Shown in pieces: positions 2,161 to 35,713 of a stretch of 37,328 nucleotides of DNA. How positions within the stretch are numbered: the stretch's first letter is position 1; every line of letters begins with the position of its first letter. Source of the stretch: a virus (Duplodnaviria; Caudoviricetes); the IMG/VR virus record IMGVR_UViG_3300014208_000418, positions 1 through 37,328 of that record; one strand, written 5' to 3'. The notes under the pieces were generated by a model that worked only from the letters and a program-made list of their open reading frames with translations, made no database searches and had not been told where the DNA came from. Position numbers and translations under genes: made by a program.

Positions 2161-2174
2161 GTGTGTGATATAAA

Positions 2175-3569: not shown

Positions 3570-3570
3570 A

Positions 3571-4020: not shown

Positions 4021-4075
4021 ATACAGCGTTATTTTTACTTTTTTGGTAACTTTGTACCCATAAGCCCCAAAACCT

Positions 4076-4316
4076 CCGTATAGGTCAATTTAATGCTGAT
4101 GAATGGGGTGTTCTGTGCCACACCGCCGGCAGACACTATTGAAAACAAACGGCCGACGCAATTTGTTGGTGCCTGTTTTCATAATGCCCCCTGCCGACGG
4201 CGTATAGCACACACCGGATGATCGACCCTGCGGCCGGTCATTGTTCTGCCGATAGCAGCACTCAACTACTTGTGCGGGTTTACCCCGCTTCGCAAAATGC
4301 CCCACGAACAGACCAG
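4076..4316 (-). ncRNA. Candidate structured RNA (long G-U-rich rod plus multi-stem domain), family unrecognised
   Basis: 310-nt gap in an otherwise coupled operon; manual pairing 4076-4089/4221-4233, 4107-4132/4191-4215, 4133-4150/4171-4187, 4234-4246/4306-4316 and a GCGGG-GUAAA-CCCGC hairpin; mismatches become G-U pairs on the minus strand. Confidence 0.5.
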
Positions 4317-4331
4317 TGTTTATTTGTAAAA

Positions 4332-5443: not shown

Positions 5444-5568
5444 ATATTTTTCAATAATGCTATAAGCGCAATGATCAAAGCGACAAACGACACCAAGAAA
5501 GATCCTCCGGTGAAGCGGGTATTTTTCTTCAATTCTATGATCAACCGTTCCGCTTGTTTTTCTGTCAT
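5440..5568 (-). CDS. Small single-TM protein (42 aa)
   Basis: MTEKQAE...FLVSFVALIIALIALLKNI; ATGA overlaps at both ends. Confidence 0.6.
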   Translation of the reverse strand: MTEKQAERLIIELKKNTRFTGGSFLVSFVALIIALIALLKNI

Positions 5569-7163
5569 TGTAGTCCCATCTTGTACAATTTTATCTTCGA
5601 CGCGATGATATCCTCTCGGTGCTTGCTCTTGCTGTGCGTGGTGATCAGCGGCGTGCACAACGCCTGCGGCACATACTCGAATTTGAACCCTTGCGACGCG
5701 AACCGCGCGGAGATCTCCTGCGTCATGCCGCCGTACCGATCGATGCGTTCGTTGAACATGCCGCCATCAATCAAAGACCTGCGCCACGTCGCGCTAAAAT
5801 TCTCAACGAAAGACTTGAACGCCCCCTTGCTCCCCCATACCCACACCTTTTTCGATTCATGCTGTTGCAGTGCTTTGACGAATGACCGGATCGCATCCGG
5901 ATGCATCTCCAAGCGATCATCGCAGAACAATACGATATCGCCGATTGCTTCGATGATCCCCATGTTCCGGGCTTTCGCAAGGCCATATATCCGCGGGTCG
6001 CTTGTGTTGAGCGTATTGATGTACCGGACAGGGAATGCGTATTTTTTCTGCATTTCGTACACGACACTGTAGGCCGTTTCATCCTGTGATCCGTCGTCAC
6101 ATATCACAACCTCGAAATTCTTATACGTTTGCTCTTTCAATTTGTGAATTGCCTGCACCAAGATCTCTGCCCGGTTGTATGTCGGTATGATCACACTCAC
6201 AATCGTATCCTTGAACAACACCCGTCGGAATAAAATGTCGTACTCCCGCGCCTGCACGTCCGGATGATACTGCCGGACCGTGCGCCATGCATTTTCGCGC
6301 AGCTCGTTGGAAATATCGTCGTTCTCCATAACCATCTTCAACGCCGCTTTCATATCCTCGATGTCGGTGTATTTCCCCTCCCGGAAAAACATATTCACCC
6401 CATGCTTCCCGCAATCGCGCGTCAACCCTATCTTGCGCGTGACAACCGGGATCCCCGATGCCATCGCTTCCAATATCGGCATGGTCCCGGATTCAGTCCC
6501 ATCATCGCTGTTCGCGCAGTACACGCGCGCGCGATGGTATACGTCGCCGATCTCATTGTCCGGAACGCTTTGTGCGAAGATGATCCCTGTCTTGTCCATC
6601 TCAACGTAATATCCCGCCTCCGAAACGCCGCCCACGACCATCAGCCGGTATCCCAATTCTCTGCACGCCTGCGCCAGCTCGCGCACGCCTTTGACCTTCT
6701 TGATCTGCCCGACGTACAGCACGATCTTTTCTTTTGTCAGCTCCGGGATGAAGCGCAGGTTTTTGAATTCGCACGCATGCCGGATCAATGTCGGTTTCAG
6801 CCCCTTCATTTCGAGCTGCTTCTTTTGCCAGCCGTTTTTCACGACAATATGATCCCATTTTTCTTTTTCCCACTCCCACTCGCCGACGACATTGTGTTCG
6901 TTGTGATGCGTTAGTATCGTGGGGATCTCCCGCGTTTCGGGGAACAGCTCGCGCATCTTCATCGCCGACTTCCAGTATTGCGCATCGATCAGATCCACGC
7001 CCTCTTTCAATTCTTTACGAATTTTCTCGATCTGCTCTGCCTCCGGGCGCTTCGGATGCAACGATACCTGCGTGATATTCAAATGCGGCAAGCGCGCCGT
7101 GTTCATCGATGCCAAGCGATCGATTGCGCTGCCGGGCTTATCCGTGATCGTCAGAATTTTCAT
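5565..7163 (-). CDS. Bifunctional glycosyltransferase, GT4 (GT-B) + GT2 (GT-A) fusion (532 aa)
   Basis: N-terminus LYVGQIKKVKG, ESGTMPILEAMASGIPVV (GT4 EX7E); C-terminus VSVIIPTYNR, EVVICDDGS, ARNMGI, LFCDD (GT2). Confidence 0.93.
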   Translation of the reverse strand: MKILTITDKPGSAIDRLASMNTARLPHLNITQVSLHPKRPEAEQIEKIRKELKEGVDLIDAQYWKSAMKMRELFPETREIPTILTHHNEHNVVGEWEWEKEKWDHIVVKNGWQKKQLEMKGLKPTLIRHACEFKNLRFIPELTKEKIVLYVGQIKKVKGVRELAQACRELGYRLMVVGGVSEAGYYVEMDKTGIIFAQSVPDNEIGDVYHRARVYCANSDDGTESGTMPILEAMASGIPVVTRKIGLTRDCGKHGVNMFFREGKYTDIEDMKAALKMVMENDDISNELRENAWRTVRQYHPDVQAREYDILFRRVLFKDTIVSVIIPTYNRAEILVQAIHKLKEQTYKNFEVVICDDGSQDETAYSVVYEMQKKYAFPVRYINTLNTSDPRIYGLAKARNMGIIEAIGDIVLFCDDRLEMHPDAIRSFVKALQQHESKKVWVWGSKGAFKSFVENFSATWRRSLIDGGMFNERIDRYGGMTQEISARFASQGFKFEYVPQALCTPLITTHSKSKHREDIIASKIKLYKMGLQ

Positions 7164-8056
7164 ATTTTATTCCACAATAAATATCCAAACTTGTCATGGT
7201 CGATGTCGCGCACTCTTTCCCGGATATGCCTCGGGTGCTGTTGCCACTCGAATGTCTTGTTGCATTTTTTGAGCCGCCCTGTGACCAGTGTGATGTAGTC
7301 ACGCAATGCGCTCTCCGGAGTGATGTCTTTCAGCGCTTTGCCGTGGTATCCATGCCCCCAAAATTTCGCATGGCTCCGGTCGAAACGATACAGCAGTTCC
7401 GTTGCTCGTTCCAGCGTCTTGAACGAATAGTCATAATTCCACACATGCACGCCCATGCGCTGATGCAGATTTTCGGGCACCGCAACCCCCTCCGGGATCT
7501 CATGCGCCGCGCCCGGGTATCTCATCCAACTTTTCCCATCCCATAGGATCGGCTGGCACAGATCGGTATATTTCGCTTTGTCCTTGCCATACCATATCGG
7601 GTACTCCATGTTCAGCGCGGTCAAGATATTCCCCTTTTCGTATGCCCGGCTCACTTGAAAGAATTGCAGCTTCTCGAATGCTCCGATCGCTTTTTTCTTC
7701 GCTTTCAATTCGCGCAGTTTCGCCTTCACCACGCCGGCATCCTGTTCATGGATGAAATAATCAGCATCGAATTTGATCACCCAGTCCGCGTTCAGCTCCC
7801 TTGCTTTGACCAGTCCGGCGTTCAAATGTCGCGCCAGCTCGTCGTAGGTCCATTCCGGTTGCGGCCAATCGAGATACTCAAAATGCAGCGGCTTATCGAA
7901 CCGCGCCTTCATCTGATCCGCAAGATCATACGTTCCGGTATCTCCGCACACCACAACCGCCTCGTCGCAGATCTCAAGCATCTGCCCGATGCATTCTTTC
8001 CACGGATCCTGCCTGTACTCCGGATCAGTGACCATTGTGATGCCGATGATCTTCAT
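7160..8056 (-). CDS. GT2-like (GT-A) glycosyltransferase (298 aa)
   Basis: ICDEAVVV, DTGT, ARHLNAGL, DWVIKFDADYFI (DXD motif). Confidence 0.8.
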   Translation of the reverse strand: MKIIGITMVTDPEYRQDPWKECIGQMLEICDEAVVVCGDTGTYDLADQMKARFDKPLHFEYLDWPQPEWTYDELARHLNAGLVKARELNADWVIKFDADYFIHEQDAGVVKAKLRELKAKKKAIGAFEKLQFFQVSRAYEKGNILTALNMEYPIWYGKDKAKYTDLCQPILWDGKSWMRYPGAAHEIPEGVAVPENLHQRMGVHVWNYDYSFKTLERATELLYRFDRSHAKFWGHGYHGKALKDITPESALRDYITLVTGRLKKCNKTFEWQQHPRHIRERVRDIDHDKFGYLLWNKI

Positions 8057-8186
8057 GTGTTTGTTTGTTATGTGGTTGATAGAATTCCGGCTACCGGCAC
8101 GTTGCTCGTTCCATGTTTTGATCCTTCTTCAATGCGCATCTCCAAAGGATCTCATCACTTCACTCACAGCGCTGCGTCGTACACCG

Positions 8187-8444
8187 CTACGCGTGCACGA
8201 TGTCGTGCGGGTCATGATCGCCGCTGCCGGCGGCCGGAAGTCTGTCGGCCACCTCTTTGAATACCGATGTTTCGGTTCTCTTTTTTCTCGGAAGATCGAT
8301 GCCGCTCTTTCGCGCGTAATGCGCCCACCGGGATATCGTAGGAAGATTCACGTCAAAATGATCGGCCAATTCCTGCCGGGTCATTGTGGTCCAGTGCTCG
8401 ACCAAAAACTGCACTGCTTCGATCGTTACCTTTTTGTCGCTCAT
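8187..8444 (-). CDS. Small helix-turn-helix protein (85 aa)
   Basis: MTRQELADHFDVNLPTISRWA HTH pattern; ATGA overlap with the upstream stop. Confidence 0.75.
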   Translation of the reverse strand: MSDKKVTIEAVQFLVEHWTTMTRQELADHFDVNLPTISRWAHYARKSGIDLPRKKRTETSVFKEVADRLPAAGSGDHDPHDIVHA

Positions 8445-9025
8445 GCTTTTCTTGCTTTAATCATATACCCTGTCACGCCGTGATCGATATCTCGGGCCGC
8501 TCTCATGCCATCGGCCGCGTACATCGTTTTCAACAGCTCCGGATTCTTGTGATACCGGTATTTTATTTCATCAATCACAAACCCCGCATTTTGCAGCAAG
8601 CGTATTGCCCCGGCCTCCGTATACCTCAAGCAATCGAACCCCACCGGATTGTGTCTTGGGTATACCAAGGGAAATGTAATGTATAGAGTATCTTTTTTAT
8701 CCAACAGAAAATTCAAATTTTTCAAAGCAGTCAACGGATCATACACATACTCCATAACCTCCAAACAAAAAATGACGTCGTGTCTTTCCGTGGACGCCTG
8801 TTGCGCGGGAACATTCGCCGGAAACGCTATATTGATATCACAAAGAAAATCCGCTTTTTGTTTTGGTTCCTCGTTGTGGTTGTCGAGTATCGCATACTCT
8901 CGCACCTCCCAGCTTTTCGTCCTGCCCTTCACCGGATTCGCAGCGCCGCCAACATCAAGAACGCGATCCGCTTTCACATCGATCGTCTTTAGCCAATCCT
9001 CAAGCTGTGTCCTATAATAGCTCAT
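8441..9025 (-). CDS. Class I SAM-dependent methyltransferase (194 aa)
   Basis: Start MSYYR at 9025; VLDVGG, HDVIFCLEVMEYVYDP, YITFPLVYPRH, DCLRYT. Confidence 0.88.
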   Translation of the reverse strand: MSYYRTQLEDWLKTIDVKADRVLDVGGAANPVKGRTKSWEVREYAILDNHNEEPKQKADFLCDINIAFPANVPAQQASTERHDVIFCLEVMEYVYDPLTALKNLNFLLDKKDTLYITFPLVYPRHNPVGFDCLRYTEAGAIRLLQNAGFVIDEIKYRYHKNPELLKTMYAADGMRAARDIDHGVTGYMIKARKA

Positions 9026-9186
9026 TTGTTTTTGAACCAGTGAATTGCTTTGCCGAAGCCATAACCGATACAGATGCTCATGATAATAATATACCCCATC
9101 AGCTCCCACCGATCGATAACGACAACAGTTTCGTTGAGCGGAGCACTGCACCTTGCCACTGTTGCACCAACAACAAGCATCATCAT
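9022..9186 (-). CDS. Small membrane protein (54 aa)
   Basis: MMMLVVGATV...LMGYIIIMSICIGYGFGKAIHWF; overlaps at both ends. Confidence 0.55.
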   Translation of the reverse strand: MMMLVVGATVARCSAPLNETVVVIDRWELMGYIIIMSICIGYGFGKAIHWFKNK

Positions 9187-10040
9187 AAAGTCTTTTTTAT
9201 TTCGTTGATATATTCCGCGGTCATACTGCTCGCCCGCAATTTCCACGGTTCATCCATCGCCGCCCCCATGATCTCTTTGTTGCCGCCGGTGAAGTTATGC
9301 TGCACCACCCCGGCCGGATTGCACAGCAGATACTCGATCAGCGTATTACTGCATGCATCATTGAAATACGGCAATTTCAGAAAGGACGCCGATCGATAGT
9401 ACCGCGCGAGATCCTCCGGGTTGTTCATGATCCCAAGATACCGGAACCGCTCACCCATGAAAAAATCAAATTTGTATTCCACCTGCTCCGGTGAAAAATT
9501 GCCGATGATCCACAGATGCGCCTCCGGTCTTTCTCTGTGCACCATGATGTAATCATACCAAGCCCGGTGCCACTCTTTCGTTTCGTCCCGGTTGTATTGC
9601 ACGTATAGATACTGCGGATACCCCTCGCGCTCAACCTTTTCGCCGTCCGGGTTGAACATTTCCTCATCCGCTCCGTTCAAGATCACCGGGCCGTCATGCT
9701 TTACGAATGGCATGATGTAGTCTTTCGCCCACTGCGACTGGTAGATCACCAGATCAGCCATCTGCGCGAAATCATACAAGCGCGATGTTCCAGTGTTTCT
9801 GTTGCGGCTGTTGCGCGGAATGTTATCGATCCGGAATACGATCTTCTTTCCTGCGTTTTTTATGTTCTGCACGTAATCACGCTCAACCATTGTCGCTCCG
9901 GATATAAGCACCGCATCCGCATCTTCCATCCGCTGCACGATATCCACCCCCTGCTTCTGCGCATATTTTGTGAATGTCCTGCGCCACGTAAAGCCGCCGC
10001 CCAAAGTCTGTTTCGATTGTGTTGGTATGAATATCTTCAT
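9183..10040 (-). CDS. GT4-like glycosyltransferase (285 aa)
   Basis: Start MKIFIP at 10040; GGGFTW, ADLVIYQSQW, VILNGAD..MF, YRSA...LPYFNDACSNTLIE. Confidence 0.88.
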   Translation of the reverse strand: MKIFIPTQSKQTLGGGFTWRRTFTKYAQKQGVDIVQRMEDADAVLISGATMVERDYVQNIKNAGKKIVFRIDNIPRNSRNRNTGTSRLYDFAQMADLVIYQSQWAKDYIMPFVKHDGPVILNGADEEMFNPDGEKVEREGYPQYLYVQYNRDETKEWHRAWYDYIMVHRERPEAHLWIIGNFSPEQVEYKFDFFMGERFRYLGIMNNPEDLARYYRSASFLKLPYFNDACSNTLIEYLLCNPAGVVQHNFTGGNKEIMGAAMDEPWKLRASSMTAEYINEIKKTL

Positions 10041-10663
10041 GCAACCTGCTCTTTCAATTTTTTCAAAAACCCCTTGAACATATTCCATTGCCCGGCGCGG
10101 TCCAATTCCCCTGCATGGCCCCACAAATAGAACATGCCGCCCTTCTTGATTGCGTGGTCAAGATAAAAGTCTGCCATACCAAGCCATGTGCGGCCGTCAT
10201 ATTCTTTCCGGACGTCGAACATATGGATCGTTGTCGGCATTCTGAATTGATCCGGCGCTTCGATCTTGAGCACATGCGTGATCCTCGCATCTTCGTACCC
10301 GGCCGCTTTGACGATCTCAACAACAACGTCATTGAATCTCCCGCGCGGATAGGCGAACGACGTGCACGGCTTCCCGGTGATCTTCTCTATCTGCGACTTA
10401 CATATCGATACCTCCCCGCTGCACTGCTCCGCTGTCAACGCCTTGAGATCCTTCGGATGCGTCATGGTATGCCCTCCGATCTCAAACCCGAGCGCCGACA
10501 ATTCTTTGATCTGTTGCTGCGCCTCGAATGACGCTGTTTCTATAAAGAACATCCCCGGCAATCCTGCTTCGAGCAATATCTTTGCCGCGCGCATATTGTT
10601 CGGATGATAGTCATCGAACGCAATGACGCATCGCGCGTTATTTTTTAGCTGGATCGGTTTCAT
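10037..10663 (-). CDS. Polysaccharide deacetylase (NodB / CE4 family, 208 aa)
   Basis: Start MKPIQ at 10663; IAFDD, FEIGGHTMTH, FAYPRG, WGH motifs. Confidence 0.92.
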   Translation of the reverse strand: MKPIQLKNNARCVIAFDDYHPNNMRAAKILLEAGLPGMFFIETASFEAQQQIKELSALGFEIGGHTMTHPKDLKALTAEQCSGEVSICKSQIEKITGKPCTSFAYPRGRFNDVVVEIVKAAGYEDARITHVLKIEAPDQFRMPTTIHMFDVRKEYDGRTWLGMADFYLDHAIKKGGMFYLWGHAGELDRAGQWNMFKGFLKKLKEQVA

Positions 10664-10973
10664 CTTCAAGATTGAATTCTGCCCGCAGATGCTTCGCAAG
10701 CGTTTCGCACGCACCGATGAGATCTGCCTGCGACAACAGCACCTTGTAGGTGATCTCAAACCACGCGTCCTTACAATCCATGCACTCCCAAAACGTGCCG
10801 ACGATCTGCTCTATCCTCTTGTGCTGGCACAGCTTCTCCTCGGTCCTCACGGTCGTTGCTTTTGCGACCTGCCCGGTCTTTTCGTCGCGGATAACGATCT
10901 CTTTCACCCTGTTCGTGAACAACTTCAAAAACATGATGCGGGCTTTGTTGTAGTATAGACGGATTGTTTCCAT
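10638..10973 (-). CDS. Hypothetical protein with CxH...CxxC (111 aa)
   Basis: LCQH...WECMDC; A/C-rich leader. Confidence 0.7.
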   Translation of the reverse strand: METIRLYYNKARIMFLKLFTNRVKEIVIRDEKTGQVAKATTVRTEEKLCQHKRIEQIVGTFWECMDCKDAWFEITYKVLLSQADLIGACETLAKHLRAEFNLEDETDPAKK

Positions 10974-10998
10974 TGTGGTGTTTTAATAATACTCTCAT

Positions 10999-11031
10999 GT
11001 GGGGTCCCGGGGTCGATTCCGGGACGCCTCA
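10999..11031. other. GC-rich intergenic stem-loop
   Basis: gtggggtcccgg-ggtcgatt-ccgggacgcctcac inverted repeat; no U-tract on the minus strand. Confidence 0.6.
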
Positions 11032-11039
11032 CGAAAGCG

Positions 11040-11177
11040 CTATTGCTCCCCTGCCTCGTTCTCTTGCGCAGCTTCCTCCGCGCCTCCATTCTCTCCGGTT
11101 TCCTCTGCAGGCGGTGTCGTTGTTTCCTCAACGCCTTCACCAGCGGCCGCCGGATCTTTTTCTTCTTCTGTGCACAT
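11040..11177 (-). CDS. Highly acidic low-complexity peptide (45 aa)
   Basis: MCTEEEKDPAAAGEGVEETTTPPAEETGENGGAEEAAQENEAGEQ; ATG 11 nt after the epimerase stop. Confidence 0.6.
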   Translation of the reverse strand: MCTEEEKDPAAAGEGVEETTTPPAEETGENGGAEEAAQENEAGEQ

Positions 11178-11188
11178 GAATATCTTTG

Positions 11189-12151
11189 TTAATGATATTT
11201 GACAACTTCGCTGATCGGACGCTCTTTTGCCTTCTGCAACCAATCCATCAGATCTGTTTTCGGCGTCCAGTACAACAGATCTCCGGCTTTGTGTATCGAT
11301 GCTCTTGTTTCCTGCGCTTCCCCGATCCTTGCCTCTGCCGGTATACGCGGATGCTCCGGGTCGATCGCATTCAGAATATCGTTGATGCTGTAATTCTTCC
11401 CGGTGCCGATATTGAACGCATGATACCCTTTCAGCCGCGCTTTCATCATGCACGGCTGCATCTGTAGCGCGGCGGCGATATTCGCTTCAACCACATCGGC
11501 GACATACGTGAAATCCCTCCGCTGTTCTCCATCGCCAACAACCGTGAACGGCTTCCCCTCCGCTTTTTGTTTCAAGAAGATACCGATCGCCGTGGCATAT
11601 GCCCCTTCGGACAACTGGCTTTCGCCGTATACGTTGAAATACCGCAGCGCCGTTACGTTCAAGCCATACAGCGCCGAGAATATCGAAAGATATTGCTCAT
11701 TGATCCACTTCTGCAACGCATAGGGATTTTTCGGTGCTTTCGCATCGTCCTCCATCGCGGGCAGATTAAGCGCCTGCCCATAGATGCTGCTCGAAGATGA
11801 ATACACGACCGGGATCCCCCACTTGCGCGCATAATCGAAGATGGCAAGCGACACGTTCACGTTCGCATCATGATACCCAAGCGGATCAGAAATGCTCGGC
11901 TGTATCCTCGGCAATGCGGCAAGATGAAAGATCACATCGGGCGGTGATGCACATTCACCCACGATCTTCTCGATGTTCCGTGCGTCATTGAGATCAAAAC
12001 TGAATCCGGGCCGCCCGGCGAATTCTTTGATCCTGTCGGCATAACCGGTCGACAGATTATCGATTCCGATCACCTCATGCCCGCGCTCGAGCAATGCACG
12101 CGTCAGATGCGATCCAATGAACCCCGCAAATCCTGTGACAACTGTTTTCAT
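11189..12151 (-). CDS. NAD-dependent nucleotide-sugar epimerase/dehydratase (extended SDR, 320 aa)
   Basis: VTGFAGFIG, DNLSTG, FHLAA, YSSSSSIYG, PYALQK (YxxxK), LRYFNVYG, GDGEQRRDFTYV, FNIGTG. Confidence 0.96.
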   Translation of the reverse strand: MKTVVTGFAGFIGSHLTRALLERGHEVIGIDNLSTGYADRIKEFAGRPGFSFDLNDARNIEKIVGECASPPDVIFHLAALPRIQPSISDPLGYHDANVNVSLAIFDYARKWGIPVVYSSSSSIYGQALNLPAMEDDAKAPKNPYALQKWINEQYLSIFSALYGLNVTALRYFNVYGESQLSEGAYATAIGIFLKQKAEGKPFTVVGDGEQRRDFTYVADVVEANIAAALQMQPCMMKARLKGYHAFNIGTGKNYSINDILNAIDPEHPRIPAEARIGEAQETRASIHKAGDLLYWTPKTDLMDWLQKAKERPISEVVKYH

Positions 12152-12567
12152 ATTTTTCCAAGTATGCGTTTCACTGGTGTTGCGCTGATTCCCATCTGCT
12201 TGGTTATCTGTACAACATTCATGCCTTCGTTGGCATAGTGACGAATTTTGTTTTCGATCTCGGGTGTGATCTCCGTACGCTTTCGGTACGTCCTTTTCCC
12301 CCCTGTCGGTTCTTCCGGCCCATCATCACCATCCGATAACAACGCCTTTGCCCGGGCTTTTGCCATCGCTTTTTTTGCTGCCTCTGTTGCTCCGGGATTG
12401 TGTGTTCTCACCTTTCCGTCAACATCCAGTTTTTCCTGCCCGGCAACATCGCTACCGGTCCACACTCTGATGTCGGTGATTCTTGGCAAGATCAAGATGC
12501 TGTTATCCTCGGTATCGATGCTGATGAGATTCCGTGTCCTCGGGTCAAGATAGTAATCTTTTGCCAT
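12148..12567 (-). CDS. Hypothetical protein with C-terminal HTH (139 aa)
   Basis: C-terminus ITPEIENKIRHYANEGMNVVQITKQMGISATPVKRIL. Confidence 0.72.
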   Translation of the reverse strand: MAKDYYLDPRTRNLISIDTEDNSILILPRITDIRVWTGSDVAGQEKLDVDGKVRTHNPGATEAAKKAMAKARAKALLSDGDDGPEEPTGGKRTYRKRTEITPEIENKIRHYANEGMNVVQITKQMGISATPVKRILGKI

Positions 12568-12568
12568 A

Positions 12569-12724
12569 TTATTTCTTCATCCAAATGAATGGTGTTGTTG
12601 CGATTACCGCACCGGCCAATGCGGCAAACAAAAGATGATGCTCCCCCACAGCCAGCACCAGCAACGCAACCACATTGACCACCGATGCTCCTGTCAGAAT
12701 GATCTCGTTGATGTATTTTTTCAT
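12569..12724 (-). CDS. Small two-TM membrane protein (51 aa)
   Basis: Hand translation MKKYINEIILTGASVVNVVALLVLAVGEHHLLFAALAGAVIATTPFIWMKK; ATGA overlap; below the ORF-track cutoff. Confidence 0.65.
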   Translation of the reverse strand: MKKYINEIILTGASVVNVVALLVLAVGEHHLLFAALAGAVIATTPFIWMKK

Positions 12725-13575
12725 GATCGTTTGTTCATGTCATTGAACCGGTCATTGCTCGCGTCCACCTCTGCGACCAGCCGCGGATCGTAACCGGCTT
12801 CCTGCGAGAATGCGACCAATGCCTTCACATCTTTCGGGAAACACTTGCCGCCATATCCCCGCTTGTCCGGGAACACTGCCGTGTGCATGCGCTCGATGCG
12901 GGTATCGAGCAAGAACAATTCCCGGAGCTGTTGATAGTCCACATCAAGCGCGTTGGCGATCTCCGCGATCTCGTTGAAAAACGTCACCTTCATCGCCCCC
13001 CACGAATTCACCGTGTACTTCATGAGCGCCGCCGTGCGCACATCGGTCTTTAGAAATCTGCAGTCGGTCCCGATCACCGGCAAAAAGAAGTCCCCGATGA
13101 TCTTCTCCGACGCTTCAACCGCCTCCGGGAACGATCCGAAGATCATAAAGCTGTGATATTTCATATCGGTCGGATGCGGATATTTCCAAAACGGCACGAA
13201 ATACTTTCCCTCTCCGATGAATTCCGGGCTGAAAACGATTTTCGCCGACTTCCCCGACTGACTGATAATGCTCTCCAAATCTTTCGGCGGCGTTGTGCTC
13301 TTGATCAGAATCAGCGGCGTATTGATCCATTTCAGCACCTCCTGCAAAATCGTCGTATTGCATGATCCATCCTCCCGGGACGGCGTAGGCACACACACGA
13401 TCGCAAGATCGCACGCATTCACATCTTCCTGCGTTGTGCCGAAAATCCTATTCCCTCCCTCGGCACGCTGTCCAAACTTCGGATCGAATACCGAAATAAA
13501 AAAACGATCGTCGTCAAAGAAACGCTCGATCGCCTGCCCCACGAAACCATGCCCCACGATTGCAATTTTTTTCAT
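12721..13575 (-). CDS. UDP-glucose/GDP-mannose 6-dehydrogenase family protein, short form (284 aa)
   Basis: Start MKKIAIVGHGFVG at 13575; VCVPTP, IKSTTPP, SPEF, KY..N...AMKVTFFNEI, GYGGKCFPKD (catalytic Cys); lacks the usual C-terminal UDP-binding domain. Confidence 0.93.
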   Translation of the reverse strand: MKKIAIVGHGFVGQAIERFFDDDRFFISVFDPKFGQRAEGGNRIFGTTQEDVNACDLAIVCVPTPSREDGSCNTTILQEVLKWINTPLILIKSTTPPKDLESIISQSGKSAKIVFSPEFIGEGKYFVPFWKYPHPTDMKYHSFMIFGSFPEAVEASEKIIGDFFLPVIGTDCRFLKTDVRTAALMKYTVNSWGAMKVTFFNEIAEIANALDVDYQQLRELFLLDTRIERMHTAVFPDKRGYGGKCFPKDVKALVAFSQEAGYDPRLVAEVDASNDRFNDMNKRS

Positions 13576-13607
13576 GTTAGTTTTTTTATTTTTTTCTCGA
13601 CCTTTCG

Positions 13608-13636
13608 AGTATACATCTTTTCGATATTCCTGTGAA
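13608..13636 (-). promoter_or_regulatory. Sigma70-type promoter for the glycan operon
   Basis: Minus strand TTCACA-N17-TATACT, 32 nt upstream of ATG 13575. Confidence 0.65.
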
Positions 13637-13656
13637 TGTTCTCCGTTCGATTTTTC

Positions 13657-13931
13657 TGTGGAAAACTTTTGCGCGCCGAATATAAATATATACATGCATT
13701 CTCTTATATGAATTTCTTTATCTTTAGACAAAGGTTTATATAGATTATTATTATTAAGCATCGCCAAAACAGGCATTTTTCGATTATTAAAAACAAAAAA
13801 ACCGCTTTGCCTTGCGGTCTTTCTGCTTTCCCGTCCTGTGGATAACTACTGCTTAACTCTTTGGATAACGGTCTGATATCGCGTGGATGAGTAGTTTTAC
13901 TCCTTTGCCGATTGTACACACTTTTTCCACA
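13657..13931. promoter_or_regulatory. DnaA-box cluster flanking an AT-rich tract (possible origin or regulatory region)
   Basis: TTATCCACA (minus) 13837-13845, TTTTCCACA (minus) 13657-13665 and (plus) 13923-13931, TTATCCAAA (minus) 13860-13868; AT-rich 13680-13800. Confidence 0.55.
13790..13818 (-). terminator. Intrinsic terminator ending the early block
   Basis: ACCGC-aaggcaaa-GCGGT followed by TTTTTTGTTTTT on the minus strand. Confidence 0.7.
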
Positions 13932-14196
13932 GGTGCATTACGCTGCTATGATCCCGGTTGATGTACCTTCCGATCTCCGCGAAAGGAAGATCCATCTGCT
14001 CCCGGAACATCGCCACCGCGTACACCCGGGCGTGGACCATATTGCGCTTCCTGCATCGACCCTTGAGATCCCCAAGCGTGACGCCGAACATGGCGCACGC
14101 CTTCTCAAGAATGCCATCGATGTCGTTCTGCCGGCGTCCGAATTTCAATACGAACGAATCGGCTACGCTAACATCACCCTGTTGATTTTTATTCAT
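13897..14196 (-). CDS. Stand-alone DnaA C-terminal (domain IV) HTH protein (99 aa)
   Basis: ILEKACAMFGVTLGDLKGRCRKRNMVHAR...LPFAEIGRYINRDHSSVMH matches Bac_DnaA_C (R-x-R..AR, IG..RDHTTV); no AAA+ domain. Confidence 0.9.
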   Translation of the reverse strand: MNKNQQGDVSVADSFVLKFGRRQNDIDGILEKACAMFGVTLGDLKGRCRKRNMVHARVYAVAMFREQMDLPFAEIGRYINRDHSSVMHLWKKCVQSAKE

Positions 14197-14205
14197 GTTT
14201 GTTGT

Positions 14206-14904
14206 CTAAAATAATCTTTGTGGCTGTACCTCCGCGAATTCGACCCATATCTTCGGATCATACGCATAGAACACAGCCCGATAGTCACTCTTTGTCGGCT
14301 TCCCCCGGGCCATTGCAGTATCAACCCTCTCCGTGTACAGATGCACCGCTTCCGCAATCGTGATCATCTCCTCCGTCCTATCTATAATCTCGTTCCGGAA
14401 CACCTTCACCTTCTTCGGCACCGGGATCCCTTTGAGCGCAGCGAACCCCCTCTTGGTAATGACCCACCACCCGCTGCGCTTGTCGTTCTGCGCAATGAGG
14501 CCCAGCTTTGCACACTGCGTCATGCGCTTTTTGATGCTGGTCGCTACCGGCAAGCGGTCAATGTGTACCTTGTTCGCGTCGGCGAAGATTGTGCCCCTCC
14601 TTGATTCGCGCAATACCTCGCCCCCGATCGCAACAAGCAACGCCGCATCCAAGCAATCGAACGTATACCAGTACGCATTCATGCTGGCCCCGCAATTCCC
14701 GCACCGGCTTGTGTTGGCGAATATCTCCGGATACTTGTCTTTGACCGCCTTGATCGCGCATGCCTCCACGTATGCGCTCCCGCTTTCGTCAGATACAGGG
14801 AGCGATGTCGGCATGCCCATGCTATGCGCTACCCGGGCGGCCAACCGGATCATATCCATGATCCTTCCCTGCACCTGCTCATTCGATCTTGTTTTTTCGG
14901 TCAT
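14206..14904 (-). CDS. Hypothetical DNA-binding protein (CxxC + winged-helix-like, 232 aa)
   Basis: Start at 14904 by ATGA overlap; RCGNCG; KLGLI...GWWVITKRG wing-like motif. Confidence 0.7.
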   Translation of the reverse strand: MTEKTRSNEQVQGRIMDMIRLAARVAHSMGMPTSLPVSDESGSAYVEACAIKAVKDKYPEIFANTSRCGNCGASMNAYWYTFDCLDAALLVAIGGEVLRESRRGTIFADANKVHIDRLPVATSIKKRMTQCAKLGLIAQNDKRSGWWVITKRGFAALKGIPVPKKVKVFRNEIIDRTEEMITIAEAVHLYTERVDTAMARGKPTKSDYRAVFYAYDPKIWVEFAEVQPQRLF

Positions 14905-15332
14905 ACCAGTGCGCATTTTACTTTTTCAAAGATGCTTTTGTGCATTCGCCTGCGGTCCCATGATAGCTTCGTCAGATGCGCCAGCATGCTGATCGCAAAT
15001 TCCCGGGCCGCCGGATCTCTCCATTGCGCCGCCGTGAATGATGCGAATATCTGCGAGCGCATGGCTTCCGGTGTTTTTTGCCGCTCGACGGCACGGCACA
15101 GATCTCGTTCATCATCCGCGAGCCGTTCACACAAAAAGGCGTTTCTGTAAAGCTGGACCAACACTACGTCGCACTTCTCGAATTTTTCGGCGTAATCTGC
15201 GACCATTGATGCAATCGCTGCATGATCTCCCTTTTCGTATGCCGTGCGTATTGCAGTGAAAGCGTCCGTCAATGATCTCGCCTTTCTTTTTTTGTACTCC
15301 CGATATGCTTCCGTCGGGTTGCTGTGTAGCAT
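14901..15332 (-). CDS. Hypothetical helical protein (143 aa)
   Basis: Protein-like composition, A-rich leader, stop coupled to the next gene. Confidence 0.7.
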   Translation of the reverse strand: MLHSNPTEAYREYKKRKARSLTDAFTAIRTAYEKGDHAAIASMVADYAEKFEKCDVVLVQLYRNAFLCERLADDERDLCRAVERQKTPEAMRSQIFASFTAAQWRDPAAREFAISMLAHLTKLSWDRRRMHKSIFEKVKCALV

Positions 15333-15603
15333 GATATTTTGTTTTAAGGATATATTCCCACAATGCGGCCGGGCTTTTTACCTCCTGCGATTCGTTCACT
15401 TCGGCCAGCGCTGCCCGCGCCGCGTGTTCGCCGTAGATCTTGCACTTTCGCGCGATCCGGCCGAAGTTTTTACTGTCCCCGAGTGCGTCGGCAATGTCGT
15501 GCGCCAGCAGTTTTGTTCTTGATCCGTGTGTCCGCTGATACTTTCCGTCTTGCCGCGCCCGGAGCGCCTGCATGTACTCTTGAATGAACGTGTTGTCTGC
15601 CAT
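15127..15603 (-). CDS. Hypothetical protein, possibly replication-initiator C-terminal-like helical domain (158 aa)
   Basis: Start MADNT at 15603; LAHDIADALGD...AALAEV...VKSPAALWEYILK recalls the 'KxPxA' ends of phage replisome organisers; function is inference. Confidence 0.6.
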   Translation of the reverse strand: MADNTFIQEYMQALRARQDGKYQRTHGSRTKLLAHDIADALGDSKNFGRIARKCKIYGEHAARAALAEVNESQEVKSPAALWEYILKTKYHATQQPDGSISGVQKKKGEIIDGRFHCNTHGIRKGRSCSDCINGRRLRRKIREVRRSVGPALQKRLFV

Positions 15604-15677
15604 ATTTTTTCGCCGCGGGCCGATCCGGATGCACCGCAAGAAGCAGTGCCCGAATCAGCGGCGCATAGGGCGGCAGG

Positions 15678-16211
15678 TTATTTTCCATGATCCTTTCTCC
15701 ATTTGCGATACCATCTGTCGACCTGCTTGATGGGGATAGAGAAATTCATGTCTGTCGGCAGCGCGGCGATGATGTCACGCTTGAAATCTTGATACACTTC
15801 CTTTGATTTTTCTGTTCCGACTTCCGCAAACATCATGATCGCAAGGGCAAGCTGCGCCGGGCCGGATCCGTTGTACCCCCAACAAAAGCCGTCCGGTGAA
15901 TGGTTCCTCTCCGCAATGCTTGGTGCCGGATCGAGCCACAAGCCATCGTAGTAAACGTTTCGCGTGTTTTGGTATCCGACTATCAACCCGGGCTTTCCGG
16001 CCTCTCCCGGGGCAGTTTGGAACGCTCTGCCGCCAATTCTGCTGCCCTCGACCTTTTCTATACGCTTTGCTCCGTGGTTATGCCCCCCGCAATCGCACGT
16101 GCATTTTAGTTTTTTCGCCCGGGCACAGCGATTTTCCCATCCCTTGCTGCATCGATGCACAAGATCTCCGGTGATGCTGTGTTGTCCGACGATTCTTTTA
16201 TTTTTGTTCAT
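15678..16211 (-). CDS. Cys/His-rich domain + DUF6166-like protein (177 aa)
   Basis: Start MNKNK at 16211; C..RC..A...KCTCDCGGHNHG, then NHSPDGFCWGYNGSGPAQLALAI...YQDFK. Confidence 0.8.
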   Translation of the reverse strand: MNKNKRIVGQHSITGDLVHRCSKGWENRCARAKKLKCTCDCGGHNHGAKRIEKVEGSRIGGRAFQTAPGEAGKPGLIVGYQNTRNVYYDGLWLDPAPSIAERNHSPDGFCWGYNGSGPAQLALAIMMFAEVGTEKSKEVYQDFKRDIIAALPTDMNFSIPIKQVDRWYRKWRKDHGK

Positions 16212-16427: not shown

Positions 16428-16582
16428 GCCTTCTTCTCCTTCCTGTTGAACATGGCACGGTCACAAGCCGCCCTGTTCCTGCAATACCACAATTTTTTCC
16501 ACACGATCTCCTGCTGATAATACAGATCCTTTTTCGGCTTCAACCTATTACAGCGATGGCAAAATCTTTTTTCGGTGTTCAT
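16424..16582 (-). CDS. Small Cys4 Zn-finger protein (52 aa)
   Basis: Hand translation MNTEKRFCHRCNRLKPKKDL...WYCRNRAACDRAMFNRKEKKA; ATGA overlaps at both ends. Confidence 0.7.
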   Translation of the reverse strand: MNTEKRFCHRCNRLKPKKDLYYQQEIVWKKLWYCRNRAACDRAMFNRKEKKA

Positions 16583-18600
16583 AGAGAATACCCTTGAAAG
16601 CGTTTCAAGCCGCTGAATTTCGGATGCGCCACCAAGCCGTCGCCCTTGCCGAGTAATTTTTCGGCACCTGCTTGGTCAAGAATGATCCGGCTGTTGATCT
16701 CCGACGTTGTGACAAACGATACCTTCGTCGGAAAATTCGCCTTGATCAGCCCGGTGATCACTTTGGCTTCCGGGCGCTGCGTTGCGATGATCAGATGGAT
16801 CCCCGCTGCCCGGCCCATTTGCGCGATACGCACGAACATTGCCTCGATAGAAAGTGCTCCATCGTCCGGTTTGGATGCTCCCATCATCAGCTCGGCGAAT
16901 TCATCCACTACGCACACGATCTGCTTCATGCCGCCGTCCTTGTAATTTTTCATTCCCTTGCTCTTGAGAAGCGAGTATCTGTTCGTCATGACCGCGACAA
17001 GGTTCCGCAGCATCTCATACGCCTGTTGCGGATCGTATGCGATCTCGCTGGCGTGTTCGGCAAACTGCGACAATTCGATCTGCTTGGGATCGATCAGTTT
17101 CAGATCCACTCCACCTTGATCAACGATTGCCTTGATCGTGGTATTTAAGAACACCGACTTGCCGCTCCCGGAAGCGCCGGCAACAAGCATGTGCGGCATC
17201 TCATCAAGATGAAGCCGTATCACTTCTCCGCTTTGTGCCACTCCGATCGGAAGCCCCGATGCCTTGCCACCAATCGCGTGCTTTGTCAGCTCGACAAATG
17301 TCCGGTCTTTCTTGGGGATCTCTACGCCAACGAAGGTCGTGTCAGGAATAGGCGCTACGACGCGCACGCCGCTCATACCGAGCGCCTGCTCGATGTCTGC
17401 TGCATATCCGGTCAAAGAACTCATTTTGACGCCAATAGAGGGCGTAAAACGGTATTGTACGAACGCATTCCCCTCCACTTTGCTGTCATAGTGAAGGACA
17501 ATGCCGTGCTCCATCAGTTTCGTTGCGATCTTCTCTTGGTTTTCCATTTTTGAATAGTCAATGTTTTTGTACTCGACCAGCGACCTTTCGATTGCCTTTT
17601 CGAGCGACTTCATGTTGCGGACCGACGTGACCTTTTTCTTGAGAACGTCGGTGATGTTGTCCACCTTGAGCAATTTCTGCTGCTTCGCTTTTTCTTCCGG
17701 TTCATCAAGCCGGTGAATATACGCGATGATGCCGATCTCGTTGTCGAACATGGTATCGATGTTCGGCACGTATACCTGCTGTCCCATCAGCGCCCGCACC
17801 ACGTCGCCGTAGTACCGCAGATAAAAGTCAAAAAACAATTCGTTCTCGGCATAGATCACGTCATACGCCCGGGTCTGCTTGCTGCCGTCCTTGTTCTTCG
17901 TGTGCTTGGTTTCGACAAACCGCATCATGTACGGTTCCTCTCCCAGCTCCGCGAACAGCAGGGAATAATACTGCACCGCCTGAATGATCTTCCGGCCGTC
18001 GATCTTCTCCGGATCGGAGAATTTCCCACATGCCTTGTCGTCCTCGATGATCAGTCTGCCCTGCTCGTCCCGGTACACGCGGTCCAAGATTCCTTTCAGT
18101 TTCACCGGAAGCACAACTCTCTTTCCGCGCCATTCAACATCGACGAATTTTTCAATGAGCAATTCCGAAGCAACAACCTTCTCATCCTTTTTCAACTCCG
18201 GAATCCTTGCGTTATAGACAAAGGCGAATTTCTCAAGAATTGTCTGCCTGTCGGGGATCCCTGTGGTCCACTTCACGAATCCCTCCGGGTATTCCTCGAT
18301 CATCTTCATCCCCTCCTGCAATCCCGCAACAACGGCATCATTCTCGCATTTGAAAAAGATGTCTATCGCATAATGGAACGCCTTACCCAAAAGAAACGAT
18401 GCGCTGTAGGAAGAATCAATTACGTCCCGGTTGATATACTTGATCCGGAACATGAGCTGGTTCGTTGAGAAAAGACACATCGACGAATGGGAAAGATGAT
18501 CCACCGGAAAACTCTGATCCGTGGGCAATTCTTCCCTATGGGAGATCTTCGGCAGTTTGCGCGGTGATAATGTTGGCTTCATTTTCTTGGTTTTCGTCAT
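16579..18600 (-). CDS. PD-(D/E)XK (RecB/RecE-like) nuclease fused to FtsK/SpoIIIE ATPase (673 aa)
   Basis: N-terminus HLSHSS, LGKAFH, E, GILDRV, IIEDDK, QAVQY. C-terminus FtsK-alpha (VGVEIP), PHMLVAGASGSGKS (Walker A), LIDPK, VVDEFAELM (Walker B), GRAAGIHLIIATQRP, GAEKLLGKGD; no TM or gamma domain. Confidence 0.93.
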   Translation of the reverse strand: MTKTKKMKPTLSPRKLPKISHREELPTDQSFPVDHLSHSSMCLFSTNQLMFRIKYINRDVIDSSYSASFLLGKAFHYAIDIFFKCENDAVVAGLQEGMKMIEEYPEGFVKWTTGIPDRQTILEKFAFVYNARIPELKKDEKVVASELLIEKFVDVEWRGKRVVLPVKLKGILDRVYRDEQGRLIIEDDKACGKFSDPEKIDGRKIIQAVQYYSLLFAELGEEPYMMRFVETKHTKNKDGSKQTRAYDVIYAENELFFDFYLRYYGDVVRALMGQQVYVPNIDTMFDNEIGIIAYIHRLDEPEEKAKQQKLLKVDNITDVLKKKVTSVRNMKSLEKAIERSLVEYKNIDYSKMENQEKIATKLMEHGIVLHYDSKVEGNAFVQYRFTPSIGVKMSSLTGYAADIEQALGMSGVRVVAPIPDTTFVGVEIPKKDRTFVELTKHAIGGKASGLPIGVAQSGEVIRLHLDEMPHMLVAGASGSGKSVFLNTTIKAIVDQGGVDLKLIDPKQIELSQFAEHASEIAYDPQQAYEMLRNLVAVMTNRYSLLKSKGMKNYKDGGMKQIVCVVDEFAELMMGASKPDDGALSIEAMFVRIAQMGRAAGIHLIIATQRPEAKVITGLIKANFPTKVSFVTTSEINSRIILDQAGAEKLLGKGDGLVAHPKFSGLKRFQGYSL

Positions 18601-19399
18601 GCTTTTTTTCGCTTACTTTTTTTCCTTTGCCTTCGACTAACGCCCCCATCTTGATGCCGGTCGACAGCTCCTTCGCCTCTTTGATGCGGTCGCTCATCAC
18701 GCTGTCCTCATTGTCGTATGCGATCGCAAGGTTCAGCATTTCGTTCTTGGGAGCCAATTTCTGTGCTTGTTTCAGTGCTGTCTTTTTCCACATCCAACCC
18801 TCCGGATCGTTTTTCTCATTCCACGGACTAAAATCGGTCCCGAACGATTTGGAAAAGCGTTGCGCGAACGAAAGGATCTCGTCCTTACGCATGAATTTTT
18901 CGACCCGGCCGCCTTTCTGTGTGGTGATGATAGCATACGCCCCCATCGGTTCACCGCGCTCACTGCGCGACTTGTACGGATCTATCACATGCGTGATCGC
19001 TCCGTTCACGATCGAGAATTCATCGTTCTTGCGGACGATCTCCGCAACCACCGACTTTGCACCAGCCCCATAGAGCAACGTGACAAATCCTTGATACCCC
19101 ATTTGGAACTGTGCTATCTTGCATCCGGACTTCCCGTCTTTATATGGCAGCACATACGCTTCCCCGGACACAGCCGATGGCATAAAGCCAAATTGCGCCA
19201 TGATTATGAAGCTGTTGATCAGCGAATCCGGCGTACACTCCGAAAGACCGGGCGTGCGCTGGATGCTACTCACTACGCTCGACAGGAATTTCAACGCCTG
19301 CTTTTGATCGCCGAAAAAATTGACGATCTGCTTGTTGTACTCGTTCGCCAGCTTCATCTTGACATCATCGAGCACGACCAGTTTATTATTTTTCTCCAT
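18536..19399 (-). CDS. recT: RecT-family ssDNA annealing protein (287 aa)
   Basis: Start MEKNNK at 19399; LSECTPDSL, GEAYVLPY, AQFQMGYQG, GAYAI, SPW...MWKKTALK. Confidence 0.93.
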   Translation of the reverse strand: MEKNNKLVVLDDVKMKLANEYNKQIVNFFGDQKQALKFLSSVVSSIQRTPGLSECTPDSLINSFIIMAQFGFMPSAVSGEAYVLPYKDGKSGCKIAQFQMGYQGFVTLLYGAGAKSVVAEIVRKNDEFSIVNGAITHVIDPYKSRSERGEPMGAYAIITTQKGGRVEKFMRKDEILSFAQRFSKSFGTDFSPWNEKNDPEGWMWKKTALKQAQKLAPKNEMLNLAIAYDNEDSVMSDRIKEAKELSTGIKMGALVEGKGKKVSEKKHDENQENEANIITAQTAEDLP

Positions 19400-19673: not shown

Positions 19674-19795
19674 GATCGTTTCTTTTTACGCTTTGCCCAT
19701 CGCTTTTTTGCCATCATGACGAAATGATCTCTGCCGTATTTTTTAAGCACTGCCCGCCCGCCGGCATACCATATCCCCTCTTTCTTTTTTTTCAT
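19670..19795 (-). CDS. Very basic 41-aa peptide (KGG/stress-motif-like)
   Basis: Hand translation MKKKKEGIWYAGGRAVLKKYGRDHFVMMAKKRWAKRKKKRS; ATGA overlaps at both ends. Confidence 0.7.
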   Translation of the reverse strand: MKKKKEGIWYAGGRAVLKKYGRDHFVMMAKKRWAKRKKKRS

Positions 19796-20199
19796 ACCAA
19801 TTCCCCATCCACGATCTTGCCCGATGCGGTTTTAATTTTTACCGTCTTGACCTCGACCGATTCGCTGGTGAAAATTCGCTTGTTGACGTACTGCAGGGCG
19901 TAGGCGTTCTTCTTCACGGCTTCAAGACAGATGTCGGTGGTCTGCTCTTTGACGTACCGCAGGGCGTCGCCATCGTTCTTCACGGCTTCAAGACAGATGT
20001 CGGTGGTCTGCTCTTTGACGTACTGCAGGGCGTCGCCATCGTTCTTCACGGCTTCAAGACAGATGTCGGTGGTCTGCTCTTTGACGTACCGCAGGGCGTA
20101 GGCGTTCTTCTTCACGGCTTCGGTTGCTTTTTTGCCGGAGTATTCGATGATGTCTGATTCATCTCCTCCAACTACTTCCAAAAATTGTTTTAGATTCAT
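19792..20199 (-). CDS. DUF4116-like repeat protein (135 aa)
   Basis: 22-aa repeats AVK(KNAY/NDGD)AL(R/Q)YVKEQTTDICLE. Confidence 0.85.
   Translation of the reverse strand: MNLKQFLEVVGGDESDIIEYSGKKATEAVKKNAYALRYVKEQTTDICLEAVKNDGDALQYVKEQTTDICLEAVKNDGDALRYVKEQTTDICLEAVKKNAYALQYVNKRIFTSESVEVKTVKIKTASGKIVDGELV
19883..20121. repeat. 66-bp tandem repeat, about 3.6 copies, in-frame
   Basis: ttcaagacagatgtcggtggtctgctctttgacgtac recurs at 19921, 19987 and 20053. Confidence 0.97.
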
Positions 20200-35707: not shown

Positions 35708-35713
35708 GAGTAT

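What the first reader, a model, noticed from the sequence alone, without database searches (positions are those of the whole stretch)
16579..19399. RecT paired with a nuclease-FtsK fusion: a possible motor-driven RecET recombination system
Seen: in the slot where a RecE/Exo partner normally sits next to recT is one 673-aa ORF with an N-terminal PD-(D/E)XK nuclease (GILD...IEDDK...QAVQY), a helical linker and a complete FtsK alpha/beta motor, with no membrane anchor or KOPS-reading gamma domain. It overlaps recT by 65 nt. Established: RecE and lambda Exo are ATP-independent; FtsK/HerA rings translocate dsDNA, and HerA drives the NurA nuclease. Inference: a single-chain hexameric translocase-nuclease that resects ends and hands ssDNA to RecT, which could support recombination-dependent replication in a phage with no visible helicase or polymerase. 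I do not know a characterised example of this architecture.
Basis: partly seen in the sequence, partly recalled or inferred. Interest (0 to 1): 0.82.

Follow-up and report, generated by a model that had tools for sequence, protein, structure and literature searches.

The report
Phage recombination nuclease with FtsK motor
This phage, like many uncultured relatives, follows its DNA-annealing gene recT with one protein that joins a RecE-like DNA-cutting domain to an FtsK-type DNA pump, which likely makes it an ATP-powered version of the classic phage recombination pair, a design not found in the papers searched.

Summary
Observation confirmed. ORF 16579-18600(-) is a PD-(D/E)XK nuclease (fold closest to AdnA and RecE) joined by a helical linker to an FtsK alpha/beta motor without gamma domain. 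It overlaps recT by 65 nt. All 120 best homologues carry the motor, and catalytic residues of both domains are invariant or nearly so. A RecT-family gene lies upstream in 54 of 54 related phage contigs. None of 43 records has a YqaJ or DUF3799 exonuclease. In five close RecT relatives an ordinary exonuclease holds the same slot, and the RecT tail changes with the partner. FtsK moves DNA from beta to alpha, toward the nuclease. Best reading (0.6): motor-fed end resection with hand-off to RecT; no activity was tested. Motor-less relatives of the nuclease are common, so ATP dependence is open. Recombination-dependent replication is not supported: 24 of 44 records carry a DnaD/O-like initiator. 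No cultured phage or paper with this architecture was found, but prophages of Rhodopseudomonas palustris and Parabacteroides carry it. This scan noted the same system four times before on other DNA.

The parts
18536..19399 (-). recT, RecT/Red-beta family annealase, 287 aa
   Evidence: Pfam RecT E 2.9e-29; phrog_148 E 1.2e-48; TIGR00616 101.6 bits, cut-off 52.65; M1 nearly invariant in 35 aligned relatives
18638..18655 (-). RecT tail motif (residues 249-254, consensus L-K-M-G-N-L), predicted docking site for the fusion protein; lies outside the gene overlap
   Evidence: Pattern matched in 43 of 53 partners (one match misplaced), background 14 of 345; codons vary synonymously; absent in 5 close RecTs paired with an ordinary exonuclease
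16579..18600 (-). nuclease-FtsK fusion gene, 673 aa
17716..18519 (-). RecE/RecB-class PD-(D/E)XK nuclease domain (about residues 28-295; H76, E146, D173, D187, K189, Q207)
   Evidence: PDDEXK_1; model pLDDT 86.7, pTM 0.84; VIA-align AdnA Z 15.0 (rmsd 3.6, 217 aligned), RecE 3h4r Z 14.5 (3.5, 197), 3l0a Z 14.5 (3.4, 201); residues invariant or 34 of 36
17548..17715 (-). helical linker (about residues 296-351)
   Evidence: Helices predicted, pLDDT under 50 at 327-345; span 300-354 is 53-54 residues in 33 of 36 sequences
17314..17547 (-). FtsK alpha domain (352-429)
   Evidence: PF17854 E 2.5e-13
16582..17268 (-). FtsK beta RecA-fold ATPase (about 445-673): Walker A at 17155-17178, Walker B D566/E567, arginine finger R597, DNA loops R609/K620/R638; no gamma domain

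Best explanation
The gene pair is a phage exonuclease-annealase recombination module in which the exonuclease is fused to an FtsK motor, and the motor likely forms an ATP-driven ring that feeds DNA ends to the nuclease, which would leave single-stranded tails for RecT to anneal. Shown here: the architecture, intact active sites in both domains, strict linkage to annealase genes, and exchange with ordinary exonucleases in the same gene slot. From the literature: FtsK rings move dsDNA from the beta to the alpha face, the side on which the nuclease is attached. Inferred: hexamer formation; loading without KOPS, probably at free ends because gamma is missing; 5'-3' polarity by analogy with RecE; and docking of RecT through its short tail motif.
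For: Fusion conserved in 120 of 120 best homologues and 120 of 120 listed long hits of the nuclease-only profile (189 hits). Nuclease residues H76, E146, D173, D187, K189 are 36 of 36 and Q207 34 of 36; Walker A, Walker B and R597 are 35 of 35 with sequence. Nearest folds are resection nucleases AdnA and RecE. A RecT-family gene is upstream in 54 of 54 contigs, directly adjacent in 50. In a more distant set 45 of 47 loci have one, and the other 2 are cut. The Parabacteroides-type clade pairs with unrelated annealase folds: RecT-like 11, ERF 3, Sak4-like AAA_24 3 of 80 loci. YqaJ and DUF3799 were found in 0 of 43 records. Reciprocal scan: of the 57 closest RecT loci 51 have the fusion-family gene downstream, 5 an ordinary exonuclease and 1 is cut. 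All 40 fused motors form one side of a branch (support 100) against 44 other FtsKs. DNA moves beta to alpha (PMC7321959), and NurA binds the N-terminal HAS face of HerA (PMC3326311).
Against: No activity was measured. Motor-less relatives with the same catalytic residues are common: 58 standalone-or-truncated against 67 fused among the best 150 representatives. They interleave with fused forms on the nuclease tree (14 label changes, at least 6 forced), and three sit near RecT, Sak4-like or ERF genes, so this nuclease fold does not need a covalent motor. RecE is a tetramer and lambda Exo a trimer (PMC11611040), which does not match a six-fold motor. The relative placement of the domains is unresolved (pTM 0.51). 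The R661-equivalent DNA contact is R or K in only 21 of 39 fused motors against 20 of 20 chromosomal FtsKs. In 63 of 80 Parabacteroides-type loci the upstream gene (phrog_3657, 59; unassigned, 4) could not be shown to be an annealase. The tail motif is clade-limited: 0 of 23, 2 of 11 and 0 of 9 in the three partner groups of the third set.
Confidence: 0.6

Rival explanations
1. The nuclease is a self-sufficient RecE-type exonuclease. The attached motor does a linked but separate job at the same DNA end, such as stripping bound proteins, protecting ends from host nucleases or moving junctions, so resection would be ATP-independent or only stimulated by ATP.
For: Motor-less family members lie beside annealases. 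Low-confidence linker stretch and pTM 0.51. Symmetry mismatch with RecE and Exo rings.
Against: Single origin of the fused motor. All 27 rows of the window's clade are fused. Linker length is nearly fixed. Motor polarity points DNA at the nuclease.
Confidence: 0.22
2. The fusion is a processive DNA-destroying translocase aimed at host or competing DNA (nucleotide scavenging, superinfection exclusion), like HerA-nuclease defence complexes, and only shares an early operon with recT.
For: HerA/FtsK-nuclease pairs act in defence (HerA-DUF4297 9e-7-range fold hit 8ziq at E 2.2e-7; PMC11291478 in search listing). The motor hits PADLOC SspH, mad8 and HerA models.
Against: The PADLOC hits cover the ATPase only, and the nuclease domain has none. 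The gene swaps with YqaJ/RecE-like exonucleases in the recT slot, and the RecT tail swaps with it. It stays with several unrelated annealase folds.
Confidence: 0.09
3. The motor stands in for a replicative helicase or drives recombination-dependent replication or genome segregation in phages that lack their own replisome.
For: DnaB_C in 0 of 43 records. The window has no hit to the initiator profile. The module sits next to replication genes.
Against: A DnaD/O-like initiator is present in 24 of 44 records (16 of them were used to build the profile), with an IstB/DnaC-like loader seen in L013. This is the lambda O/P pattern of recruiting host DnaB (established knowledge). FtsK is a dsDNA translocase and here lacks the KOPS reader and the membrane anchor.
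Confidence: 0.09

Closest known systems
RecE-RecT, lambda Exo-Red beta and YqaJ/DUF3799-RecT exonuclease-annealase pairs
   Same: RecT-family annealase next to a PD-(D/E)XK nuclease of RecE-like fold (Z 14.5 to 3h4r); same gene slot, exchangeable with ordinary exonucleases; partner-specific annealase C-terminus.
   Different: The nuclease is fused to an intact FtsK ATPase. Known pairs have no motor: PMC8093625 passages list YqaJ, DUF3799, SSB, SMC and uncharacterized AAA ATPases as recT neighbours, with 0 mentions of FtsK; PMC11611040 has 0 mentions.
HerA-NurA end-resection complex
   Same: FtsK/HerA-superfamily ring coupled to a nuclease on its N-terminal face (PMC3326311 passages).
   Different: Two proteins. 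NurA is a different (RNase H-like, recalled) dimeric nuclease bound through a HAS barrel. Here the motor is FtsK proper with an alpha domain (36-38% identity to P. aeruginosa FtsK, 14% to HerA), single-chain, and linked to an annealase, not Mre11-Rad50 and RecA/RadA.
AdnAB, AddAB, RecBCD, Dna2 and UvrD-Cas4-like helicase-nucleases
   Same: RecB-family nuclease covalently joined to a motor; the AdnA nuclease is the top structural match (Z 15.0).
   Different: Their motors are SF1 or SF2 single-strand helicases. PMC5704561 passages report PF12705 fusions or links to SF1 and SF2 helicases, with 0 mentions of FtsK or HerA.
Chromosomal FtsK/SpoIIIE and stand-alone phage FtsK-like proteins (mycobacteriophage Omega group, Bacillus phages)
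   Same: Alpha/beta motor, Walker motifs, arginine finger and loop II contacts.
   Different: No membrane anchor or gamma domain; separate branch; relaxed loop I. In cultured phages 0 of 400 matching records cover 80% of the query.

Membership tests
Exonuclease-annealase (RecET/Red-type) module | RecT/Red-beta family annealase gene | tested here: met
Exonuclease-annealase (RecET/Red-type) module | Adjacent PD-(D/E)XK nuclease of lambda-Exo/RecE fold with intact active site | tested here: met
Exonuclease-annealase (RecET/Red-type) module | Conserved linkage, and no other exonuclease of the usual families in the genome | tested here: met
   54 of 54 contigs linked; YqaJ and DUF3799 0 of 43; other exonuclease families not searched
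Exonuclease-annealase (RecET/Red-type) module | Motor-free exonuclease (no ATPase domain) | tested here: not met
   Intact FtsK ATPase fused
Exonuclease-annealase (RecET/Red-type) module | Processive 5'-3' digestion and physical nuclease-annealase binding | not testable with these tools
   Activity needs bench work; the complex prediction could not be run; only tail co-variation is in hand
FtsK/SpoIIIE chromosome translocase | Alpha and beta motor domains with Walker A/B, arginine finger and DNA loop II | tested here: met
FtsK/SpoIIIE chromosome translocase | C-terminal gamma (KOPS/XerD) domain | tested here: not met
   Chain ends 4 residues after the last motor motif; chromosomal FtsKs have 99-173 residues beyond the motor match
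FtsK/SpoIIIE chromosome translocase | N-terminal membrane anchor | tested here: not met
   N-terminus is a soluble nuclease fold
FtsK/SpoIIIE chromosome translocase | Hexameric dsDNA translocation | not testable with these tools
   Inferred from conserved interface and finger residues only
HerA-NurA | HerA with HAS barrel and a separate NurA nuclease | tested here: not met
   Motor is FtsK-type with alpha domain; nuclease is RecB/RecE-class; HerA models score 14-16 bits against a cut-off of 800
AdnAB/AddAB/RecB helicase-nucleases | RecB-family nuclease domain | tested here: met
AdnAB/AddAB/RecB helicase-nucleases | SF1 (UvrD-like) helicase motor | tested here: not met
   Motor is FtsK

The most novel reading that the evidence does not exclude
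A distinct class of DNA-end resection machine: a single-chain, obligately ATP-coupled FtsK ring that loads at ends without KOPS, pumps DNA into its own RecE-like nucleases, and recruits whichever annealase the phage carries (RecT, Bet, ERF, Sak4-like or the unassigned phrog_3657) through a short transplantable tail. It would be the phage counterpart of HerA-NurA and RecBCD, arisen once and spread among phages of Patescibacteria, Bacteroidota and Alphaproteobacteria.
Probability: 0.4. Interest if true: 0.85.

Novelty: new variant of a known kind. Interest (0 to 1): 0.7.

Why it matters
Textbook phage recombination pairs use passive, motor-free exonucleases, and motor-driven resection is a property of cellular machines (RecBCD, AddAB, AdnAB, HerA-NurA). 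A widespread phage family that puts an FtsK motor in the exonuclease slot would be a new way to start single-strand annealing and a new use of FtsK. It offers a direct test of whether a dsDNA pump can drive resection in one chain. Databases label these proteins 'DNA translocase FtsK', which hides the nuclease. Copies in prophages of cultured Rhodopseudomonas palustris and Parabacteroides make it testable and are candidate recombineering systems. The gene slot also points to phrog_3657 as a possible unrecognised annealase family.

Tried and rejected
Assembly chimera or chance read-through: rejected. Split form, with nuclease and FtsK as neighbouring genes: not seen in 66 viral lone-FtsK loci. 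The apparent splits in L067 and L268 close under TGA=Gly; L373 remains frameshifted in the motor. The scans of genome contigs and metagenome contigs were swamped by ordinary FtsK and gave no fusion locus among the 80 kept in each, so they say nothing about prophage frequency. The A3 stand-alone subfamily gave no viral locus. The 278-aa members of the Parabacteroides cluster looked like truncated nucleases but are the upstream partner protein. phrog_3657 could not be assigned: Pfam and NCBIfam blank, Atlas nearest named clusters Rad52_Rad22 0.77 and RecT 0.75, leads only, hhalign to RecT negative. The window ORF 15127-15597 gave only sub-0.9 Atlas hits, Rep C-terminal domains at 0.75-0.76. The complex prediction of fusion with RecT tail was never run because the queue was full, so there is no verdict on binding. 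A Xer/dif role was rejected because gamma is missing and only 4 of 43 records have a tyrosine recombinase hit. Nine literature searches listed no paper on this architecture. Subscription papers are largely outside the library, and supplements were not read; the gene-context sheet of PMC8093625 may bear on the claim. The 2004 comparative survey of the FtsK-HerA superfamily (recalled, not seen) should be checked for this fusion.
Full report
Setting. The window is a whole IMG/VR virus record of 37,328 bases, linear, rated 72% complete. It encodes terminase, portal, HK97-type capsid, tail tube, tape measure, amidase and a large glycosylation cluster. Relatives are mostly 30-45 kb phage contigs. 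The host is unknown. Patescibacteria are likely: several named homologues come from Patescibacteria MAGs, relative L067 reads TGA as Gly at the invariant G273, and ten window genes show no obvious Shine-Dalgarno motif by eye. One member of the same clade, however, is a provirus of Rhodopseudomonas palustris.

The observation. ORF 16579-18600(-) has PDDEXK_1 at 35-251, FtsK_alpha at 352-429 and FtsK_SpoIIIE. recT (18536-19399, 287 aa) overlaps it by 65 nt. The 120 best homologues are 43-70% identical apart from the window's own entry; all carry both FtsK Pfam domains and 115 also PF12705. A nuclease-only profile found 189 long proteins, and the 120 listed all carry the FtsK domains. No cultured phage record covers 80% of the query or of a distant homologue (0 of 400; 0 of 274).

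Both halves look active. In 36 aligned sequences H76, E146, D173, D187 and K189 are invariant and Q207 is 34 of 36. Walker A, D566/E567, R597 and Q608 are invariant in the 35 with sequence there. The nuclease model (pLDDT 86.7, pTM 0.84) matches the AdnA nuclease (Z 15.0), E. coli RecE (14.5) and 3l0a (14.5), which are tied. The full model matches P. aeruginosa FtsK best (E 1.5e-28), but the domains are not placed relative to each other (pTM 0.51). Passages of PMC7321959 give the FtsK DNA contacts and the beta-to-alpha direction of DNA movement. The window keeps the R620, R632, G640, K643 and R661 equivalents. K657 is Glu here, but it is Lys in only 2 of 20 chromosomal FtsKs. Across the family loop II is kept (39 of 40) while the R661 site is R or K in 21 of 39, against 20 of 20 chromosomal. 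That may mean a looser grip on one strand; this is speculation.

Linkage. Of 37 IMG/VR loci with the full fusion, 31 had a RecT hit by phmmer. Four had a Bet-like RecT above the Pfam cut-off and one a weaker RecT-like gene. The last was cut, and its other contig end showed RecT (L250). Seventeen further contigs all had one. That gives 54 of 54, of which 50 are directly adjacent. The other 41 loci were motor-only matches and were set aside, then reused as controls. In a more distant set 45 of 47 loci have a RecT-like gene within three ORFs upstream, the other two are cut, and a few contigs overlap the first set. In the Parabacteroides-type clade (80 loci, many near-identical) the upstream gene is phrog_3657 in 59, RecT-like in 11, ERF in 3, Sak4-like AAA_24 in 3 and unassigned in 4 (representatives of each cluster were scanned, not all members). 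phrog_3657 could not be shown to be an annealase. Forty-three whole records have no YqaJ, DUF3799 or DnaB_C hit.

Reciprocal control. Among the 57 closest RecT loci, 51 have the fusion-family gene downstream (3 cut before the motor). Five have an ordinary exonuclease: three by PHROG hits, two by motif under table 25. One is cut. None of the 22 more distant RecT loci has the fusion, and most neighbours tested are RecE/YqaJ-type exonucleases. The fusion therefore occupies the exonuclease slot.

Tail. An earlier scan note (e1-5909404) suggested a partner-specific tail, and I tested it. An L-K-M-G-N-L-like pattern matches 43 of 53 partners in the window's set, including 6 of 7 Bet-type proteins only about 25-30% identical to the RecT type. 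The background is 14 of 345, one match is misplaced, codons vary synonymously, and the motif lies outside the overlap. The five close RecTs with ordinary exonucleases lack it and carry other C-termini. In the Parabacteroides-type clade 38 of 39 distinct partners from six clusters end in [LM][PL], background 4 of 549. The third set shows neither motif, so tails are clade-specific, not universal. Binding itself is untested.

Origin. Forty fused motors form one side of a branch (support 100, FastTree) against 20 chromosomal and 24 lone viral FtsKs, consistent with one origin if the root lies among the latter. The nuclease profile hits 923 representatives at 50% clustering. The best 150 include 67 fused, 58 stand-alone or truncated, 14 other and 11 fragments. 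Fused and unfused forms interleave on the nuclease tree, though the window's clade of 27 rows is all fused; some unfused rows may be contig truncations. Of six stand-alone viral loci, three lie near RecT, Sak4-like or ERF genes and three gave no assignment. So the fusion most likely arose from an ordinary annealase-partner nuclease that gained a motor, and some lineages lost it again.

Mechanism. The nuclease is attached before the alpha domain, the face toward which FtsK moves DNA. A ring loaded at a DNA end would push DNA into the nuclease, as HerA is modelled to do with NurA on its N-terminal HAS face (PMC3326311 passages). One strand would be degraded, and RecT, held by its tail, would coat and anneal the other. 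I put this at 0.6. The main rival (0.22) is an ATP-independent RecE-type nuclease with a motor doing an accessory job. Bulk DNA destruction (0.09) and a replication role (0.09) fit less well. For the latter, 24 of 44 records carry a DnaD/O-like initiator, 16 of them by construction, while the window does not.

Literature. Nine searches listed no description of this architecture. I saw keyword passages only, not whole texts or supplements, of PMC8093625, PMC5704561, PMC3326311, PMC7321959, PMC13059738, PMC11611040, PMC10853773 and 10.1101/2020.10.07.330464; PMC11291478 was seen as a listing only. Four earlier scan notes describe the same system on other DNA. They are not independent evidence, and their count of over a thousand relatives was not reproduced here.

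Verdict. A real, conserved and apparently undescribed motorised variant of the phage exonuclease-annealase pair. It works like RecET combined with HerA-NurA, but it is a member of neither FtsK proper, HerA-NurA nor AdnAB. Interest 0.7.

Noticed in passing
window 1294-13776 (-): Large glycosylation cluster: several glycosyltransferases, an NAD-dependent epimerase, UDP-glucose dehydrogenase, methyltransferases and a polysaccharide deacetylase. Relatives carry other glycosyltransferase, LicD and cytidylyltransferase genes.
   Followed up: no
window 2175-3569 (-): One ORF has an HNH_3 hit at 82-117 and a glycosyltransferase group 1 hit at 338-435: a possible mobile insertion or fusion.
   Followed up: no
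window 13897-14196 (-): Stand-alone DnaA C-terminal helix-turn-helix (E 5.7e-16); its cluster occurs in 7 of 38 loci, often right after the fusion gene.
   Followed up: partly
window 14206-14916 (-): Unassigned 236-aa protein conserved in 12 of 38 loci near the module; only weak PHROG hits.
   Followed up: partly
window 15127-15597 (-): 156-aa ORF with weak Atlas resemblance (0.75-0.76) to Rep C-terminal domains; a possible divergent initiator piece.
   Followed up: partly
window 19792-20199 (-): DUF4116 repeat protein with near-identical tandem units upstream of recT.
   Followed up: no
window 33503-35731 (-): Portal fused to a Mu gpF-like head morphogenesis domain.
   Followed up: no
P0147 (984 aa): Fusion homologue with an insertion of about 290 residues inside Walker A, with Cys start and His-Asn end, which looks like an intein by eye (motif recalled).
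   Followed up: no
L067, L292, L496, L500, L268: Reading frames open under table 25 (TGA=Gly), which suggests Gracilibacteria or Absconditabacteria hosts; L268 rests on a single TGA.
   Followed up: partly
L298-L376, gene upstream of the fusion (for example L307:4168-5001): phrog_3657 (59 loci) and a second unassigned family (L358, L359, L369, L375) occupy the annealase slot and share the C-terminal tail: candidate unrecognised annealases.
   Followed up: partly
G018:145-681, G021:97-645: Two proviral records of the clade have a tyrosine recombinase at the very edge of the record; whether it is host XerC/D or a phage integrase was not checked.
   Followed up: no
window 15470-15688 (-): Small 72-aa ORF with an HPD motif reminiscent of J-domains (by eye); it overlaps other ORFs and may not be a gene.
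   Followed up: no
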